Source: Parcubacteria group bacterium (GTDB lineage Bacteria; Patescibacteriota; Minisyncoccia; Moranbacterales; UBA2206). From it: a stretch of DNA of 64,000 bases. Positions 11,591 through 45,750 of this stretch are shown piece by piece (position 1 is the stretch's first letter; every line of letters starts with the position of its first letter). The DNA is taken from positions 35,493 to 99,492 of the forward strand of contig JBAZUU010000001.1 of assembly GCA_041661275.1 (NCBI GenBank), in the 5' to 3' direction. The notes beneath the pieces were generated by a model. That model searched no databases. It was not told the DNA's origin and saw only the letters and a list, made by a program, of their open reading frames with translations. The position numbers and the translations under genes are program-made.

Positions 11591-11985
11591 GGGGATGAAC
11601 TGGTTTCGACAGATTGTACATTTAAAATATGCAAGCCGGGCCGAATACCCGTAAAAATATTCAAAATGTTATAAGTGCAAACTTACTAACGAAGGCAAAA
11701 ACTGTATTCGCGCAAGCGTTTACTTCAAATTTTGCTTACGCTACAGCCTAATTAATTTTAGACAGTAGCCATCGAACTGTCGAAGTCTCATAGACAGAAC
11801 TTGGTGTCAAACATGAGAATAGCGCGGATTGCATTTCCTTGGCAATATGCGTAAAATAAACATAGGGATAAGTTGAAGTAATTTTTTCTATTTTTATCTT
11901 TAACTGAAATTACCAAATAGGATAAGCTTGTAGATTATTTTGAATGAATAATTTTGGACGCGAGTTCGATTCTCGCCATCTCCAC
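11591..11985 (+). ncRNA. ssrA: tmRNA (SsrA)
   Basis: 5' GGGGATGAACTGGTTTCGAC. 3' GGACGCGAGTTCGATTCTCGCCATCTCCA is the tRNA-like T-arm/acceptor. Internal tag ORF is ...NFAYATA followed by TAA. Confidence 0.8.
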
Positions 11986-12000
11986 ATAGCGATGCCAATC

Positions 12001-15058: not shown

Positions 15059-15922
15059 CTATCTTTGCAATTTCTTTTTCTCCTGACTTTTCAGAAAATT
15101 TCCGCTAGTAATGACTTTTCTCCCGGTTTTTTGTTCCAAATCGATTCTTGCTTTTTTGGCAATTCTGCCACCTCTTTTGCCAGCAACTTTGTTTTCATCC
15201 ATACCTCTCGCTTCTGTTGTTTCGGCAATTTGTCTGGTAGAAAATTCGGCTAAGGCTGTAAAAATCAATTCCGCTTCACTCATATGATCACGCAGGTTTT
15301 GTGTTTTCAACCCTTTTAGGTTTTTATGCTCTTTTACCGTTAAGTCCGACCACTCTTGATGAATAATATTAGTAAGAATGGCAAATTCTTCTTTTTCTTT
15401 GATATCATTGGCGCTCCAATAGTCCGTCAGCTTGTTTCTTGTTTCTTGCCCCATCATTCTTCGCTGTATCCATTGTTGATTGCGCCCATGTTTTTTCCAA
15501 TTTTCCCGGGCGCGATTGAGCGACTTTTCCGGATCAGCTAATTCTTGAATTCTTTCATATCCAACTTTAGCTAACCACAATTTGATTGGCTCAGCCTTTT
15601 TTGACGGAACTGATTGAATAAGACGGAGGATGGTTTCCGGATTAGCCGCATCCGTAAGATACTTTTTACCATCAGCGGCTTCCAATTTCAGTTGGTTACA
15701 TTCCGTAACCGACTGATTTCCTTCCGTTTTCAAGCGATTTTTCAGCACTTTCCAATAATTTCTAGCTAATTGAAAATCCTTTTGATCAATCAGTACAGCA
15801 ATGATGTCGATTACAGAAAAATACCATACCTCCTCTTTTTCATTATAAAGACGTCGAATTTCAAAATTTTCAAAAATAGCTATTTCGTGGTTTATGTTTT
15901 TTTCCTTTGTTTTCTTTTTCAT
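15059..15922 (-). CDS. Bro-N / DNA-damage-inducible protein D (DinD)-like protein
   Basis: N-terminal Bro-N-like region (FENFEIRRLYNEKEEVWYFSVIDI). Overall resembles DinD/antirepressor family proteins. Confidence 0.6.
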   Translation of the reverse strand: MKKKTKEKNINHEIAIFENFEIRRLYNEKEEVWYFSVIDIIAVLIDQKDFQLARNYWKVLKNRLKTEGNQSVTECNQLKLEAADGKKYLTDAANPETILRLIQSVPSKKAEPIKLWLAKVGYERIQELADPEKSLNRARENWKKHGRNQQWIQRRMMGQETRNKLTDYWSANDIKEKEEFAILTNIIHQEWSDLTVKEHKNLKGLKTQNLRDHMSEAELIFTALAEFSTRQIAETTEARGMDENKVAGKRGGRIAKKARIDLEQKTGRKVITSGNFLKSQEKKKLQR

Positions 15923-15923
15923 T

Positions 15924-16922
15924 TTATTTTTTCATCCCTTTCTTTAACAACTTTTTTACTTCCCGATCAAAATCAGAGATATAATTTTTGTCTTGGTTCA
16001 CGCGATATTTTTCATATTCTTCCAGTGCCTTCTTTTCAGCCTGTTTCGCACTTACCTTGCCGGATGAATGCAATAAATCCTTTTCCGAAATGGTCAAAAA
16101 TTCATCCAGTTTTCTGATCCAATCCTGCATTTTCATCAAACGGCCACTACTGGCTTGCAACTCTGCGAAATCGATATAGAGCGAAACAATGAGATTCAGC
16201 TGATTTATTTCCCGTTCAGTTAGATAGTTTTTTGCGACAACAATGTCATCGGTCGTAATATAATCACTTCTGAAACTCGTGAGTCCCATCAGGGGTTTCT
16301 TACTATCGGCACGCCGGGCGACGATTTCAGCCGCCGTATGTCCATGCACCGCGTAATGCATCTTGTTCTGCACCGTAGCAAAGAATTTTTGTGTCAACTC
16401 GGCATCAATTTTATAGTCGATGCTTGTCGCATAAATATCAGTAACTTTCTGATAAAACCTTCGCTCACTACTCCTGATGTCGCGCACTCGTTGCAATAGT
16501 TCTTGGAAATAGCGTGCTCGACCACCAACTTGTTTGAGTCGTTCGTCGTCCATTGTAAAACCCTTAATCAGATACTCTCTCAGCCTTTCTGTCGCCCATT
16601 TGCGAAATTGCATCCCCCTATCCGATCGTACACAATAGCCAACAGCCAGAATTACATCTAAATCGTAGTGTTTTGCGTTATAACTTTTGCCATCCGCGGC
16701 AGTTATTCGGAAATTCCTAATAACTGAATTTTCGTCCAATTCACCATCTCCAAATATATTTTTCAAATGTTCGTTGACCGTGGGAACGCTCACATCAAAA
16801 AGCTCAGCAATCAGTTTTTGCGTCAACCAAACATTTTCTCCTTCAATTCTAACATGAATTTTTTGCTCATCGCCAAGAGCTTGATAGATGGCAATTTGCG
16901 GTTTTTTATTCTCCTTTTTCAT
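15924..16922 (-). CDS. RhuM-family protein (virulence/anti-defense associated, HTH)
   Basis: VWLTQKLIAELFDVSVPTVNEHLKNIF...VGYCVRSDRGMQFRKWATERLREYLIKGFTMDDERLK matches RhuM family signature blocks. Confidence 0.75.
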   Translation of the reverse strand: MKKENKKPQIAIYQALGDEQKIHVRIEGENVWLTQKLIAELFDVSVPTVNEHLKNIFGDGELDENSVIRNFRITAADGKSYNAKHYDLDVILAVGYCVRSDRGMQFRKWATERLREYLIKGFTMDDERLKQVGGRARYFQELLQRVRDIRSSERRFYQKVTDIYATSIDYKIDAELTQKFFATVQNKMHYAVHGHTAAEIVARRADSKKPLMGLTSFRSDYITTDDIVVAKNYLTEREINQLNLIVSLYIDFAELQASSGRLMKMQDWIRKLDEFLTISEKDLLHSSGKVSAKQAEKKALEEYEKYRVNQDKNYISDFDREVKKLLKKGMKK

Positions 16923-16939: not shown

Positions 16940-18037
16940 TTATAGTGATATAATATCACTATAACCCTCCCTGTCCAGCTCACTGCTGTGGATAACTTTT
17001 ATCTTCCTCGTAATTCCATGCCCGTTGCAGTGTTTCAAAATCCCCGAATACGACTGCAAGCTCTGGCCAAACGATTCTCTGGAAACTAATTTTTCTCGAA
17101 ACATCTTATGTTTCAGTGATAACTTATGGAATATCCGCCTCTTTGTTTTTGTCCTCAAAACTCTATGGTGCGGTAAAACTATATATCCCAGAAAATCAAT
17201 TCCTTGCCTTAGTTTTCTGATAATAATTTTATCAGGATGCAGTTTTAATTTTAATTCCTGTTCGAGAAACTTTCCTATTTCTGGAATTAATTTTTCTAAA
17301 TATTTTTTGTCTTCCAACAAAATAATGAAGTCATCGCAATACCGCAGATAGTATTTTTCTTTTAGCTTATGTTTAATAAACTGATCGAGTTCATTGAGAT
17401 AAATATTGGCAAATATCTGGCTGGTCACGTTGCCCAGCGGCAATCCTGAATCGAAACTTTTGATAATTGTTTCAATAAGCCAAATAGCATTTTTATCGTC
17501 AATCTTCTTTTGAATAAGTTCCAATAATATTTCCTGGTCAATCGAATCAAAAAACCTTTTGATATCGCATTTGAGCGCGTAAATATTTCTATTATTATTT
17601 CGACTGGCTTTCCGACAAAATTGCTCTAATCTTAGAACCGCCCGGTGCGTTCCTTTTTCTACTCGGCAGGAATATGAATCAAAAATGAAAATTTTGTCGA
17701 AAATGGGGTATAATATTCTGAAAATGGCGTGGTGCAGAACGCGATCTCGCACGCAAGCTTTATGAATTCGCCGCAATTTTGGATCGTGCACGTTAAATGC
17801 GGTATAATGGGAATGTTGGTAGGTTTTGTTTTTTAGCTCGCAGTGGAGTTGAAACAAGTTATCTTCCAGACTAAATTCAAGTTCCTGAACGTCTGGCTTA
17901 TTTTTTTTGCCATTTCGAAATTCCTGCCAGGCTAAAAACAAATTTTCCAAGCTAATAATTTTTTCAAATATATTATGACAAATTTCGTCCCCACTAAAGC
18001 CCCCCCCCAAGGAGTTTCCGGTATTAATGTTGTTCAT
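16940..18037 (-). CDS. diversity-generating retroelement (DGR) reverse transcriptase
   Basis: RT domain with the YCDD active site. Motif 4 reads LGNVTSQ, the DGR-specific [I/L/V]GxxxSQ form, in place of QGxxSP. Located 330 bp from a TR/VR pair. Confidence 0.85.
   Translation of the reverse strand: MNNINTGNSLGGGFSGDEICHNIFEKIISLENLFLAWQEFRNGKKNKPDVQELEFSLEDNLFQLHCELKNKTYQHSHYTAFNVHDPKLRRIHKACVRDRVLHHAIFRILYPIFDKIFIFDSYSCRVEKGTHRAVLRLEQFCRKASRNNNRNIYALKCDIKRFFDSIDQEILLELIQKKIDDKNAIWLIETIIKSFDSGLPLGNVTSQIFANIYLNELDQFIKHKLKEKYYLRYCDDFIILLEDKKYLEKLIPEIGKFLEQELKLKLHPDKIIIRKLRQGIDFLGYIVLPHHRVLRTKTKRRIFHKLSLKHKMFREKLVSRESFGQSLQSYSGILKHCNGHGITRKIKVIHSSELDREGYSDIISL
16941..16998 (-). promoter_or_regulatory. 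promoter/operator element A: 23-bp palindrome tatagtgatataatatcactata (extended -10 TGaTATAAT / TGaTATTAT), upstream TGGACA -35, and 13-mer AAGTTATCCACAG
   Basis: Palindrome at 16941-16963. On the minus strand it reads TGGACA-16-TGaTATTAT ahead of the rhuM start 16922. ctgtggataactt at 16986-16998 is the reverse complement of AAGTTATCCACAG. Confidence 0.55.
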
Positions 18038-18373
18038 AAAAATAGCAAGCCTAAATTATTTATTGACCTTGAAAAATTATACGGCGACTGCTATGATCGC
18101 GTAAAAAATTTTCCCAAGCTGGATAAAAATCTCCTTGGAAAAGAAATTTTACAATTTTTGAACGATACGCACAAAGCCTCTTTGATCTCAATCTACGCTC
18201 CTTCTTATCTTCCTTTAGCCAGCGCTAATTTCGATCTGTTCAAAAAATCATTGCGGATTGCCGTGGACAAAAAATTCATTTCCTGCGGCTGGTATTCGGC
18301 TCATTTTGAAATTATCGTTTCCATTGGAAGAGATATCGGAAAATGGCTAAAAACAAAACGCCCGAAGTGCTAG
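17975..18373 (+). CDS. 132-aa ORF antisense to the RT-TR spacer; possible accessory (Avd-like?) protein or spurious
   Basis: An unusually long open frame for an AT-rich genome. Has a weak DCYD match to the Bordetella Avd N-terminus. It overlaps the RT 5' end and sits on the opposite strand. Confidence 0.2.
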   Translation: MTNFVPTKAPPQGVSGINVVHKNSKPKLFIDLEKLYGDCYDRVKNFPKLDKNLLGKEILQFLNDTHKASLISIYAPSYLPLASANFDLFKKSLRIAVDKKFISCGWYSAHFEIIVSIGRDIGKWLKTKRPKC

Positions 18374-18470
18374 GGCGAGGCGCAACCGGTTGACGCTGTT
18401 GGAGTTGTCGGCATCGTTCGAGTTGAGGTTGAACTCGCTGTCGTACGAGTCGGCAATGCCACACGAGACA
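18373..18470 (-). repeat. DGR template repeat (TR)
   Basis: 98 bp aligning with 18825-18922 at offset 452. Carries A (coding strand) at all 14 mismatch positions. The coding-strand 3' 32 bp are invariant (IMH-like). Confidence 0.8.
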
Positions 18471-18819: not shown

Positions 18820-19845
18820 CTATAGGGCGAGGCGCAACCGGTTGACGCTGTTGGAGCTGCCGGCACCGCACGAGCCGAGGCCGAACCCGCCGCCGCACGA
18901 GCCGGCAATGCCACACGAGACACCGGGATTCGTACCTTTGTCGCGATGGTCAACGACATTTCTCAGCCAATCCCACGTTTTGGGAGCCAGATATGTTTTG
19001 TTCTTCGCGTAACGCTGGCATGCCAGAATCATTTCTTCTTCCGCTGAAACTACTCTTACTTTCCGCTCGATCGCCGAAATGTATGAGCAATCGCGAAGTT
19101 CGACGATCCGGCCATCCTTGTTGACGATGGTCTGATTGGTGGAGATGTCCTGGGCGCTGTTGGTAAAAATGAGATCCACCATACCAGGAATGACCAAAAG
19201 TGGTCGCTTCCCGATAATCAGCCGAATTATTTCCGCCACCCACGCATTTTTGAAGTCGTCACTATTAAATTCCTCCGGCTCGACAGATATACCTCTTTCA
19301 AGAAGTTCTGCGAGCGTGAGTTTCGTCCACCGGTCAGTGCCGTTCTCCGCCCAGACCCTGAAGCCTTCTTTTTTGAGCGGTTTCATAATCCGCTCGTAGA
19401 AAAACCGGGCGCCAGTCATCTGCGCTTCCGTATCGGACAAGATTAGCGGCGTAGCTTTGACTTCGGCGTAGCTGAGACAGCCCGCTTCTAGCCCGGCTTT
19501 GATGGCCGGCATCCTGTTCGGGTCAATGGAGATTTTCTTGAAATCGATACGGAAATCATCGCCGTAAAACTGGCGATAAAAAACTTCCTGCTCGGCGATC
19601 TGGCCCATCAATCCGCCTGACAGTTTCGACTCCAGCTTATTCTTCTTGAGCCAGAGCAAAAACTTTTTGAGGTTGAGGTTTTTTCTGACAGGGATGATGC
19701 CGGAATTTCTTTCTCGTTCTTCTTTTTTCAAATTGAGAAACCATTCCAGCTCCTCCAAAGACAACTCTCCTTTACGAAGCTTGGAGAGCAGGTCGATTTG
19801 CAGACCAGCCAATCTGGCCGTTTCTGCTCCGATGATCACACTCAT
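18820..19845 (-). CDS. DGR target (variable) protein, 341 aa, VR-encoded C-terminus GSCGGGFGLGSCGAGSS
   Basis: In-frame through the VR. The TR reading in the same frame has AAC/GAC codons where the VR has GGC/TGC/AGC. No obvious signal peptide. Confidence 0.7.
   Translation of the reverse strand: MSVIIGAETARLAGLQIDLLSKLRKGELSLEELEWFLNLKKEERERNSGIIPVRKNLNLKKFLLWLKKNKLESKLSGGLMGQIAEQEVFYRQFYGDDFRIDFKKISIDPNRMPAIKAGLEAGCLSYAEVKATPLILSDTEAQMTGARFFYERIMKPLKKEGFRVWAENGTDRWTKLTLAELLERGISVEPEEFNSDDFKNAWVAEIIRLIIGKRPLLVIPGMVDLIFTNSAQDISTNQTIVNKDGRIVELRDCSYISAIERKVRVVSAEEEMILACQRYAKNKTYLAPKTWDWLRNVVDHRDKGTNPGVSCGIAGSCGGGFGLGSCGAGSSNSVNRLRLAL
18825..18922 (-). repeat. DGR variable repeat (VR) at 3' end of target gene
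   Basis: Differs from TR at 14 sites, all at TR coding-strand adenines (13 A>G, 1 A>T). Encodes the Gly/Cys-rich C-terminus. Confidence 0.8.
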
Positions 19846-45675: not shown

Positions 45676-45750
45676 TCCGGCGTAGCTCAATGGTAGAGCA
45701 GTTGACTGTTAATCAATTGGTTGTAGGTTCGAGTCCTACCGCCGGAGCCA
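45676..45750 (+). tRNA. tRNA-Asn (anticodon GTT), CCA encoded
   Basis: Acceptor stem tccggcg/cgccgga. D-arm agctcaatggtagagc. Anticodon loop ctGTTaa. T-arm gtagg-ttcgagt-cctac. Confidence 0.85.

What the first reader, a model, noticed from the sequence alone, without database searches (positions are those of the whole stretch)
18001..18009. G9 homopolymer inside the DGR RT 5' coding region, a possible slipped-strand on/off switch
A C9 run on the plus strand (G9 on the coding strand) encodes the GGG of the RT N-terminus (SLGGGFSG). In a genome this AT-rich a 9-nt G tract is very unlikely by chance. A change of one unit would frameshift the RT. It could make diversification phase-variable, or it could be a homopolymer sequencing error.
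Basis: seen in the sequence. Interest (0 to 1): 0.5.

Follow-up and report, generated by a model that had tools for sequence, protein, structure and literature searches.

The report
Poly-G switch shared by DGR genes
A run of nine G:C base pairs lies where the starts of two back-to-back genes of a diversity-generating retroelement (its reverse transcriptase and its helper protein Avd) overlap. In related bacteria this run changes length between otherwise identical genomes, so it most likely acts as a reversible on/off switch for the whole protein-diversifying machine.

Summary
The homopolymer is real. It is C9 on the + strand and G9 on the RT strand, at 18000-18008, one base off the reported coordinates. 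It is the only G/C run longer than 6 nt in the 64 kb window. It is not a sequencing error: independent assemblies of this genome all carry G9.

One tract therefore sets the reading frame of both genes. G9 gives RT 365 aa and Avd 132 aa; G8 or G10 truncates both.

A G7-G14 run (mode 9-10) occupies this position in 110 of 145 related Patescibacteria DGR loci. In three other species, contigs identical over 2.5-3.8 kb differ only in tract length (G8/G9/G10; G9/G10/G11; G9/G10/G11). In one of them the only other differences lie in the DGR variable repeat.

Best explanation: a slipped-strand contingency tract that switches RT and Avd together, here in the ON state. One result stays unexplained: 59% of species have both genes offset by +1, so transcriptional or ribosomal recoding may contribute. 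I found no published description.

The parts
18000..18008 (.). Homopolymer tract, C9 on + strand and G9 on - strand. It is read as L-G-G-G (ttG GGG GGG GGc) in RT and as A-P-P-Q (gCC CCC CCC Caa) in Avd.
   Evidence: In silico, G8 or G10 truncates both ORFs and G12 restores both.
17975..18037 (.). 63-nt 5'-5' overlap of the RT and avd ORFs. The RT ATG (18037..18035) is the reverse complement of Avd His21 (CAT). The avd ATG (17975..17977) is the reverse complement of RT His21 (CAT).
   Evidence: The same ATG...tract...CAT geometry is seen in relatives.
16940..18037 (-). DGR reverse transcriptase, 365 aa, read from the ATG upstream of the tract. Automatic gene calls start at Leu30, giving 336 aa.
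   Evidence: RVT_1 E 7.5e-23. 7,818 homologues, the best from Patescibacteria. The translation contains LGNVTSQ and YCDDF. Gene calls.
17975..18373 (+). avd (accessory variability determinant), 132 aa, on the strand opposite to TR and RT (architecture TR-(avd)-RT).
   Evidence: PF22296 bAvd E 1.9e-4 for this copy. All 22 aligned orthologues hit bAvd, best E 3.8e-22. Called as a gene in the ENA assembly.
18371..18470 (-). Template repeat (TR), 100 nt.
   Evidence: Every difference from VR lies at a TR adenine.
18823..18922 (-). Variable repeat (VR) at the 3' end of the target gene. It is the only VR in the window.
18820..19845 (-). DGR target gene, 341 aa, no Pfam match.
18076..18105 (-). Promoter-like site (TTTACG-18-TATAAT) about 39 nt upstream of the RT ATG. 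This is a consensus match only.
17849..17877 (+). Promoter-like site (TTGAAA-17-TAAATT) about 98 nt upstream of the avd ATG. This is a consensus match only.

Best explanation
The G9:C9 tract is a simple-sequence contingency tract placed in the shared 5' coding overlap of the divergently transcribed RT and avd genes of a Patescibacteria DGR. Gain or loss of one G:C pair by slipped-strand mispairing during replication shifts the frame of both genes at once. Each start codon lies on the far side of the tract from its own gene body, so both proteins needed for mutagenic retrohoming are switched ON or OFF together. In this window the tract length (9) puts both ORFs in frame, which is the ON state. 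G8, G10 and G11 would be OFF, and G12 would be ON again.

Shown: the anatomy; the clade-wide conservation of the tract; the coupling of the two frames; and length polymorphism between otherwise identical contigs in three related species.

Inferred: that the two ATGs are the real start codons; that the polymorphism arises by replication slippage at a high, reversible rate; and that OFF alleles lack DGR activity.
For: (1) Anatomy. The RT and avd ORFs overlap 5'-5' by 63 nt and the tract is inside the overlap. Changing the tract by +/-1 truncates RT to 14-34 aa and Avd to 17-42 aa; +3 restores both.

(2) Conservation. 110 of 145 evaluable related loci carry a G6-G14 run at this position: 46 at G9 and 39 at G10 among the 111 tract loci counted, which include the window. 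These genomes are AT-rich. Tract lengths are not multiples of 3, and the conserved flanks are read in different frames in different loci. The conservation is therefore at nucleotide level, not a Gly/Pro protein motif.

(3) Coupling. The offset between the RT ATG and the RT domain equals the offset between the avd ATG and the Avd domain in 80 of 82 loci.

(4) The ATGs behave as real starts. Relatives without a homopolymer have both ORFs in frame from these ATGs, either abutting (CAT-att-ATG) or overlapping (L044, L093).

(5) Direct polymorphism.
- Moranbacteria: L164/L165/L166 are G8 (in frame), L167 is G9, L006 is G10, with 1000+1500 nt of flank 100% identical.
- GROS21-1 samples: L168 is G11 (in frame), L169 is G10, L170 is G9, with 1400+2400 nt of flank identical.
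- Wildermuthbacteria: ten contigs are G9 x7 (in frame), G10 x2 and G11 x1. The right flank is identical over 2235 nt. In eight of the nine comparisons with L171 the only left-flank differences fall inside the VR; the G11 contig L177 also diverges at the far end of the left flank, possibly through an indel that I did not resolve. The avd ORF is called only in the G9 contigs.
- N-termini of 90%-identity protein clusters vary in the way expected from tract-length variants.

(6) Among 17 nearest-neighbour species pairs, 5 differ only in tract length.

(7) Contig ends pile up at the tract: about 10 of 79 upstream ends lie within about 25 nt of it.

(8) An unrelated repeat, (GT)7 or (GT)10, occupies the same junction in a tract-less subclade (L130, L155).
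Against: All assemblies found for this window's own species have G9, so no heterogeneity has been shown here. They may share samples.

The polymorphism is seen at assembly-consensus level only. Illumina and library-PCR errors at G8-G11 cannot be fully excluded without reads.

Across species the in-frame state is a minority (19 of 93). The +1 offset is over-represented (55 of 93), and it is the commonest state for both G9 and G10 loci. A pure random ON/OFF switch does not predict this.

Reversibility, switching rate and loss of DGR activity in OFF alleles are untested. The start codons are inferred; neither has an obvious Shine-Dalgarno sequence.
Confidence: 0.65

Rival explanations
1. Programmed recoding rather than, or in addition to, DNA switching. 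In this view the normal genomic state is RT and Avd each split by a +1 offset at the tract. The full-length proteins are then made at low level in one of two ways. One is a ribosomal +1 frameshift: tRNA-Gly slips on GGG_G or tRNA-Pro on CCC_C, possibly stimulated as in prfB by the G-run acting as an internal Shine-Dalgarno sequence ahead of CUU-UAA. The other is RNA-polymerase slippage on a tract as long as the 9-10 bp RNA:DNA hybrid. The window would then be a derived, constitutively fused allele.
For: 55 of 93 loci have the +1 offset, against 19 in frame and 19 at +2. The +1 offset is the commonest state for both G9 (30/9/2 for +1/in frame/+2) and G10 (18/7/8). Some flanks compensate for tract length, for example G9+CTTTAAT versus G10+CTTAAT, and three sister pairs keep the frame through combined changes of tract and flank. 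In +1 loci the zero frame stops 1-3 codons after the tract (GGG GGG GGG CTT TAA), and the RT frame has no start codon of its own. The modal length of 9-10 matches the bacterial RNAP hybrid length quoted in PMC5009743. Low-level frameshifting on a G run is documented for HSV thymidine kinase.
Against: The window itself needs no recoding. The codon before the zero-frame stop varies (CUU, UCU, UAU, CGU, GAU, GCU...), so a prfB-type slip on that codon is not general. 20% of loci would need -1 rather than +1. DNA-level length differences are seen directly in three species and include in-frame alleles. Two genes sharing one tract is not needed for recoding, but it is the natural design for a DNA switch. 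From my own knowledge, not checked here, bacterial RNAP slippage is documented mainly for A/T runs.
Confidence: 0.25
2. The tract is a nucleic-acid element with a role unrelated to reading frame. Examples would be a structural or binding element of the DGR RNA downstream of TR, or a transcription pause or R-loop site separating the TR RNA from RT mRNA.
For: Conservation at nucleotide level in one DGR clade. The tract lies on the same transcript strand as TR, about 360 nt downstream of it.
Against: Its position is fixed relative to the two start codons, not relative to TR. Related DGRs of the same architecture lack it (35 loci). Length varies between otherwise identical sequences. No Rfam family covers it. 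No C-rich partner was noticed by eye in the local sequence; no fold or repeat search was run for one.
Confidence: 0.07
3. Sequencing or assembly artefact, or a chance homopolymer with no function.
For: G-homopolymers are error-prone. One contig (L054) carries an obviously artefactual 50-nt poly-C at this site, and contigs often break here.
Against: The same G9 occurs in independent assemblies of this genome. A tract is present in 110 related loci from many projects. The chance expectation is 0.06-0.17 per window.
Confidence: 0.03

Closest known systems
Simple-sequence contingency loci (intragenic poly-G/C tracts of Neisseria, Haemophilus, Campylobacter, Helicobacter); also the Bifidobacterium breve pilus G-tract replication-slippage switch (PMC9187656)
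   Same: An intragenic G/C homopolymer of 8-11 nt near the 5' end of an ORF. Changing its length by one unit shifts the frame (ON/OFF). Tract length differs between otherwise identical sequences. The tract is conserved across related taxa.
   Different: One tract lies in the overlapping 5' ends of two divergent genes and gates both. What it controls is a targeted-mutagenesis machine (RT plus Avd), not a surface structure or a restriction-modification enzyme. The hosts are uncultured Patescibacteria. Switching rate and reversibility have not been measured.
CPR-type DGRs of architecture B3, TR-(avd)-RT (Wu et al. 2018, PMC5758913)
   Same: Target gene with a 3' VR, then TR, then avd on the reverse strand, then RT. 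That paper reports this architecture for 90% of its CPR DGR set.
   Different: The passages of that survey returned by my term searches do not mention a homopolymer, an RT/avd start overlap or frame disruption; I did not read the whole paper. Here the avd-RT junction carries a conserved, length-variable G:C tract.
prfB (RF2) programmed +1 ribosomal frameshift
   Same: In most relatives, though not in the window, there is a short ORF1, then a G-rich Shine-Dalgarno-like run, then CUU followed by a stop codon, and the main ORF lies in the +1 frame without its own start.
   Different: The pre-stop codon is not conserved. There is no 3-nt spacer distinct from the run. 20% of loci need -1. The same site serves a second gene on the other strand. 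DNA-level length variation is observed.
Repeat tracts shared by divergent genes, e.g. the H. influenzae hifA/hifB (TA)n promoter repeat (from my own knowledge, not checked here)
   Same: A single repeat co-regulates two divergently transcribed genes.
   Different: That repeat acts on promoter spacing at the level of transcription. Here the tract lies inside both coding regions and acts on the reading frame.

Membership tests
Diversity-generating retroelement (DGR) | Reverse transcriptase of the DGR type | tested here: met
   RVT_1 E 7.5e-23. The translation contains LGNVTSQ and YCDDF. The closest homologues sit in loci with a TR/VR pair and avd.
Diversity-generating retroelement (DGR) | TR/VR repeat pair whose differences are confined to TR adenines, with VR at the 3' end of a target ORF | tested here: met
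   100-nt repeat, 86% identical. All differences lie at TR adenines. VR ends 3 nt before the target stop codon.
Diversity-generating retroelement (DGR) | Accessory gene avd | tested here: met
   The plus-strand ORF 17975-18373 hits bAvd weakly. Its orthologues hit bAvd in 22 of 22 cases, best E 3.8e-22.
DGR architecture B3, TR-(avd)-RT (Wu et al. 2018) | avd lies between TR and RT on the opposite strand | tested here: met
   Coordinates. Definition from PMC5758913.
Slipped-strand (simple-sequence-repeat) phase-variable locus | A repeat tract long enough to slip (7-8 nt or more for G/C) inside or just upstream of an ORF, where a change of one unit switches expression | tested here: met
   G9 at codons 10-13 of RT and codons 9-12 of Avd. 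Tract changes of +/-1 truncate both.
Slipped-strand (simple-sequence-repeat) phase-variable locus | Tract-length polymorphism between otherwise identical sequences | tested here: inconclusive
   Met in three related species. Not seen in the window's own species, where every assembly is G9. All of this evidence is at consensus level only.
Slipped-strand (simple-sequence-repeat) phase-variable locus | High-frequency, reversible switching within a clonal population, with a phenotypic consequence | not testable with these tools
   This needs read-level or culture data. The organisms are uncultured.
prfB-like programmed +1 ribosomal frameshift | Main ORF in the +1 frame relative to a short ORF1 that ends in a stop codon at the shift site | tested here: not met
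   In the window the ORF is continuous. The feature is met in 55 of 93 relatives.
prfB-like programmed +1 ribosomal frameshift | Conserved slippery codon (CUU U) before the stop, with a Shine-Dalgarno-like element 3 nt upstream | tested here: inconclusive
   CUU UAA follows G9 in some loci. Other loci have UCU, UAU, CGU, GAU or GCU before the stop. The G-run could supply the Shine-Dalgarno-like pairing.
Transcriptional slippage site | Homopolymer at least as long as the RNA:DNA hybrid (about 9 nt), giving heterogeneous mRNA lengths | not testable with these tools
   The length criterion is met (mode 9-10; hybrid length from PMC5009743). No RNA data are available.

The most novel reading that the evidence does not exclude
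A large clade of Patescibacteria DGRs carries a built-in bidirectional contingency switch. One hypermutable G:C tract in the shared 5' overlap of RT and avd makes targeted hypermutation itself phase-variable, so one mutation-prone tract gates another mutation-generating system. The predominant +1 configuration may additionally provide a low basal level of both proteins through frameshifting or transcriptional slippage. This would be the first described cis-regulatory control of DGR activity, and a rare case of one repeat gating two divergent overlapping ORFs by reading frame.
Probability: 0.5. Interest if true: 0.8.

Novelty: new variant of a known kind. Interest (0 to 1): 0.7.

Why it matters
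To my knowledge, how DGR mutagenesis is regulated is largely unknown. Uncontrolled retrohoming would constantly scramble a working target protein, yet I know of no dedicated regulator.

A heritable, reversible ON/OFF tract that gates both essential proteins would explain how tiny-genome CPR bacteria, which appear to have few regulators, keep diversification confined to a subpopulation.

The idea is directly testable on existing metagenomic time series: does tract state correlate with VR turnover?

It also matters for annotation. Gene callers truncate RT to 336 aa or drop avd at these loci, and the frame-disrupted genes found in about 80% of species could be read as pseudogenes. Surveys that score DGRs as intact or degenerate may therefore misclassify a whole clade.

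Finally, the design (two divergent ORFs whose start codons are each the antisense of a His codon of the other, flanking one homopolymer) is a compact way to co-switch two genes.

Tried and rejected
(1) Protein-level GGG (or PPP) motif. Rejected: the codons are uniformly GGG in AT-rich genomes, tract lengths are not multiples of 3, and the same flanking nucleotides are read in different frames.

(2) RT starting downstream of the tract. There is no in-frame ATG/GTG/TTG between the tract and the conserved domain in the loci examined. In three of the four loci with 70-115-nt inserts there (L010, L011, L018) the RT frame stays open with no internal Met; L026 is also open but carries two in-frame Met codons. 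The TTG at Leu30 used by gene callers may be a side-effect of Prodigal not allowing 5'-5' overlaps (my own recollection of that program).

(3) RT starting at a TTG formed by 'tt' plus the first G of the tract. This is possible in some loci but not general: many have gtc, atc or ctG there.

(4) TAATG stop-start coupling after the tract. The ATG is out of frame with RT (worked out from the sequences).

(5) Tract acting as a promoter spacer. Both ATGs, and the promoter-like sites, place the tract downstream of both putative transcription starts.

(6) Known RNA family. None at this site.

(7) PDB sequence search with the Avd profile found nothing.

(8) Searching for other assemblies of the window's species with a different tract length found none.

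(10) Paul et al. 2017 (Nat Microbiol, on CPR DGRs) is not held in the library and could not be checked.

(11) Five literature searches combining DGR or Avd with homopolymer, frameshift, slippage, phase variation or poly-G found no description of this tract.

(12) The three structure-based tools (structure prediction, fold search, representative-protein search) were not used, because the question did not turn on protein fold.

Full report
OBSERVATION. The + strand carries C9 at 18000-18008, flanked by ...actaaag/aaggag.... The finding's coordinates (18001-18009) are off by one. The window is 39.5% G+C. This is the only G or C homopolymer longer than 6 nt: the next longest are three C6 and one G6, while A/T runs reach 8-9. 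The expected number of G or C runs of 9 or more is 0.06 (iid) to 0.17 (Markov). On the minus strand the tract is read as TTG GGG GGG GGC, which is L10-G13 of a 365-aa ORF (18037..16940) with an RVT_1 domain.

CONTEXT: A BONA FIDE DGR. On the minus strand lie a 341-aa target gene (19845..18820), its 3' variable repeat (18922..18823) and a 100-nt template repeat (18470..18371). All TR/VR differences sit at TR adenines, and there is no second VR in the window. The RT follows downstream.

Between TR and RT, on the PLUS strand, lies a 132-aa ORF (17975..18373). It hits bAvd (PF22296) weakly. Its orthologues from 22 related loci all hit bAvd, best E 3.8e-22, and 16 of them also hit 23S_rRNA_IVP. This is the TR-(avd)-RT 'B3' architecture that Wu et al. 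2018 report for 90% of CPR DGRs (PMC5758913). NCBI names the identical RT as coming from a 'Parcubacteria group bacterium' MAG.

The RT and avd ORFs diverge and overlap at their 5' ends by 63 nt (17975-18037). The arrangement is mirror-like. The RT ATG is the reverse complement of Avd codon His21, and the avd ATG is the reverse complement of RT codon His21. The tract lies in the middle of the overlap and reads GGG in RT and CCC (A-P-P-Q) in Avd. Each start codon lies on the far side of the tract from its gene body, so one indel shifts both genes. In silico, G8 gives RT 34 aa and Avd 42 aa; G10 gives 14 aa and 17 aa; G12 restores 366 aa and 133 aa.

NOT AN ERROR. A Logan assembly of SRR6484324 (L001) has the same G9. 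An ENA contig of 299,612 nt (L162/L163), identical to the window over 9 kb and possibly its source, has it too. The exact 132-aa Avd, which requires this frame, is on record in four blocks of the contig collection.

COMPARATIVE ANATOMY. I fetched 160 related RT loci: 80 from one-genome-per-species GTDB contigs and 80 from JGI/ENA metagenomes. RT identity to the window is 50-75%, and nearly all are Patescibacteria.

Of 145 evaluable loci, 110 have a G6-G14 run at the same position. Counting the window, the length distribution is G6 x1, G7 x5, G8 x7, G9 x46, G10 x39, G11 x10, G12 x2, G14 x1. The flanks are conserved as nucleotides (~tccgtY-Gn-YcTTAAt), but different loci read them in different frames, and tract lengths are not multiples of three. 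The conservation is therefore of the homopolymer itself, not of a Gly or Pro motif.

A conserved ttATG(A/C)A(C/A)CAA(A/G)GG lies 20-45 nt upstream of the tract and is the likely RT start. The conserved CAT downstream is the antisense of the avd ATG. The frame offset from ATG to domain is the same for RT and Avd in 80 of 82 loci, as the mirror geometry requires.

In the 35 loci without a tract, which are mostly more distant relatives, RT and avd start from ordinary ATGs. These abut (CAT-att-ATG) or overlap by a few bases. In two closer relatives where mixed G-rich codons replace the homopolymer (L044, L093), the overlapping ORFs are in frame. This supports the two ATGs as genuine starts and shows that the tract is an addition to a working architecture.

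FRAMES. Among the 93 loci with a clear RT ATG, only 19 (including the window) are in frame. 55 have the RT and Avd bodies in the +1 frame, and 19 in +2. About four-fifths of species consensus sequences therefore have both genes interrupted at the tract.

DIRECT EVIDENCE FOR DNA-LEVEL LENGTH VARIATION. Within 90%-identity RT protein clusters, members with identical downstream sequence have N-termini that differ as tract-length variants would predict. I confirmed this on DNA in three species.

(i) Moranbacteria from the Rifle aquifer. L164, L165 and L166 are G8 (both ORFs in frame), L167 is G9 and L006 is G10. 1000 nt of left flank and 1500 nt of right flank are 100% identical. L164-L166 may derive from a single sample assembled three times.

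(ii) Three GROS21-1 samples. L168 is G11 (in frame), L169 is G10 and L170 is G9. 1400+2400 nt of flank are identical.

(iii) Wildermuthbacteria, ten contigs from different samples: G9 x7 (in frame in this species), G10 x2, G11 x1.
- The right flank has zero differences over 2235 nt.
- In eight of the nine comparisons with L171, the only left-flank differences lie 759-1011 nt upstream (mostly 815-911), that is, in and beside the VR (181-302 in L171).
- The G11 contig L177 also diverges at the far end of the left flank, possibly through an indel that I did not resolve.
- The DGR is therefore actively diversifying its target in this population.
- The 123-aa avd ORF is called only in the G9 contigs.

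Three further lines agree.
- Of 17 reciprocal nearest-neighbour species pairs, 5 differ only in tract length.
- About 10 of 79 upstream contig ends fall within about 25 nt of the tract, several times the chance expectation. This fits either heterogeneity or G-run sequencing trouble.
- A tract-less subclade carries a different repeat, (GT)7 in L130 and (GT)10 in L155, at the same avd/RT junction, inside the avd 5' coding region. Repeats appear to have been recruited to this junction more than once.

MECHANISM. The best-supported reading is a slipped-strand contingency tract that switches RT and Avd ON and OFF together. The window is in the ON state. The closest documented parallels are the intragenic G/C tracts of Campylobacter and Neisseria and the Bifidobacterium pilus G-tract, where replication slippage was demonstrated by maximum-depth sequencing (PMC9187656). 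Sharing one tract between two overlapping divergent ORFs is costly for coding. It makes most sense if co-switching at the DNA level is the selected property.

WHAT REMAINS UNEXPLAINED. The +1 offset is over-represented (55/19/19 for +1/in frame/+2). It is the commonest state both for G9 loci (30/9/2) and for G10 loci (18/7/8), because flanks and tract length co-vary, and three sister pairs keep their frame through combined changes. In +1 loci the zero frame reads GGG GGG GGG CTT TAA or similar, which recalls prfB (AGG GGG UAU CUU UGA). The RT frame has no start of its own. The modal length also equals the 9-10 bp RNAP hybrid (PMC5009743).

Low-level expression from OFF alleles by +1 ribosomal frameshifting or transcriptional slippage is therefore a serious complementary hypothesis. 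Against it as the sole mechanism:
- the pre-stop codon is not conserved;
- 20% of loci would need -1;
- in-frame alleles exist in nature;
- DNA length differences are observed directly.
Phylogenetic non-independence of the 93 loci was only crudely addressed.

COMPARISON WITH WHAT IS KNOWN, AND NOVELTY. DGRs, the B3 architecture and homopolymer phase variation are each known. I found no paper connecting DGRs or Avd with homopolymers, phase variation, slippage or frameshifting of RT. The passages of Wu et al. 2018 returned by my searches describe the reverse-strand avd and do not mention a tract. Paul et al. 2017 could not be read, so prior mention there cannot be excluded. I classify the finding as a new variant of a known kind: a contingency tract with an unusual two-gene, two-strand geometry, governing a mutagenesis system.

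VERDICT. Confidence that the tract is a frame-setting switch for both genes by DNA length variation is about 0.65. Recoding as the main or additional mechanism is about 0.25. Interest is 0.7.

Noticed in passing
L130 about 2480-2495 and L155 about 30-50 (locus coordinates), 19 nt upstream of the RT anchor: In a tract-less subclade, a dinucleotide repeat, (GT)7 in L130 and (GT)10 in L155, occupies the same avd/RT junction. It lies inside the 5' coding region of avd, read as (AC)n and encoding His-Thr repeats, and upstream of the RT ATG. This is a different repeat type at the same place.
   Followed up: partly
L171-L180, positions about 181-302 of L171: Ten contigs of one Wildermuthbacteria population from different samples are identical over more than 3 kb apart from the poly-G length and 2-22 substitutions in and beside the VR; one contig (L177) diverges further at its far left end. 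This looks like ongoing DGR diversification between samples.
   Followed up: partly
93 related loci (L002-L161): The +1 frame offset between the start codons and the gene bodies is strongly over-represented (55 versus 19 and 19). Compensating changes in flank and tract preserve it. A simple random ON/OFF switch does not explain this.
   Followed up: partly
L100, L156, L078, L149, L018, L161, L046, L088, L092, L054 (contig starts): Contigs frequently end at or within about 25 nt of the tract. L054 begins with a 50-nt poly-C that looks like a poly-G read artefact fused at the tract, and L057 has C15 next to G11 with Ns nearby.
   Followed up: partly
L168-L170 (GROS21-1 species): The codon that is antisense to the avd ATG is TAT instead of CAT, so avd lacks the usual ATG (ATA instead). 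Its start in this species is unclear.
   Followed up: no
window 16940-18037 and relatives: Automatic gene callers start the RT at Leu30 (336 aa) or further downstream, or they drop avd. This is probably because 5'-5' overlaps on opposite strands are disallowed. Database RT and Avd entries of this clade are therefore systematically N-terminally truncated.
   Followed up: partly
window 15924-16922 (-) and 15059-15922 (-): Immediately downstream of the RT lie a RhuM-family ORF (PF13310, by the precomputed annotation of the identical ENA contig) and an adjacent 287-aa ORF. They look like a mobile-element or prophage-type pair next to the DGR.
   Followed up: no
window 11591-11987 (+) and 45676-45747 (+): A tmRNA gene (153 bits) and one tRNA gene are the only Rfam matches in the window.
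   Followed up: no
window, whole: A and T homopolymers of 8 or more are much rarer than a first-order Markov model predicts (A8+ 3 observed versus about 12 expected; T8+ 5 versus about 21). This suggests general avoidance of long homopolymers and makes the retained G9 stand out further.
   Followed up: no
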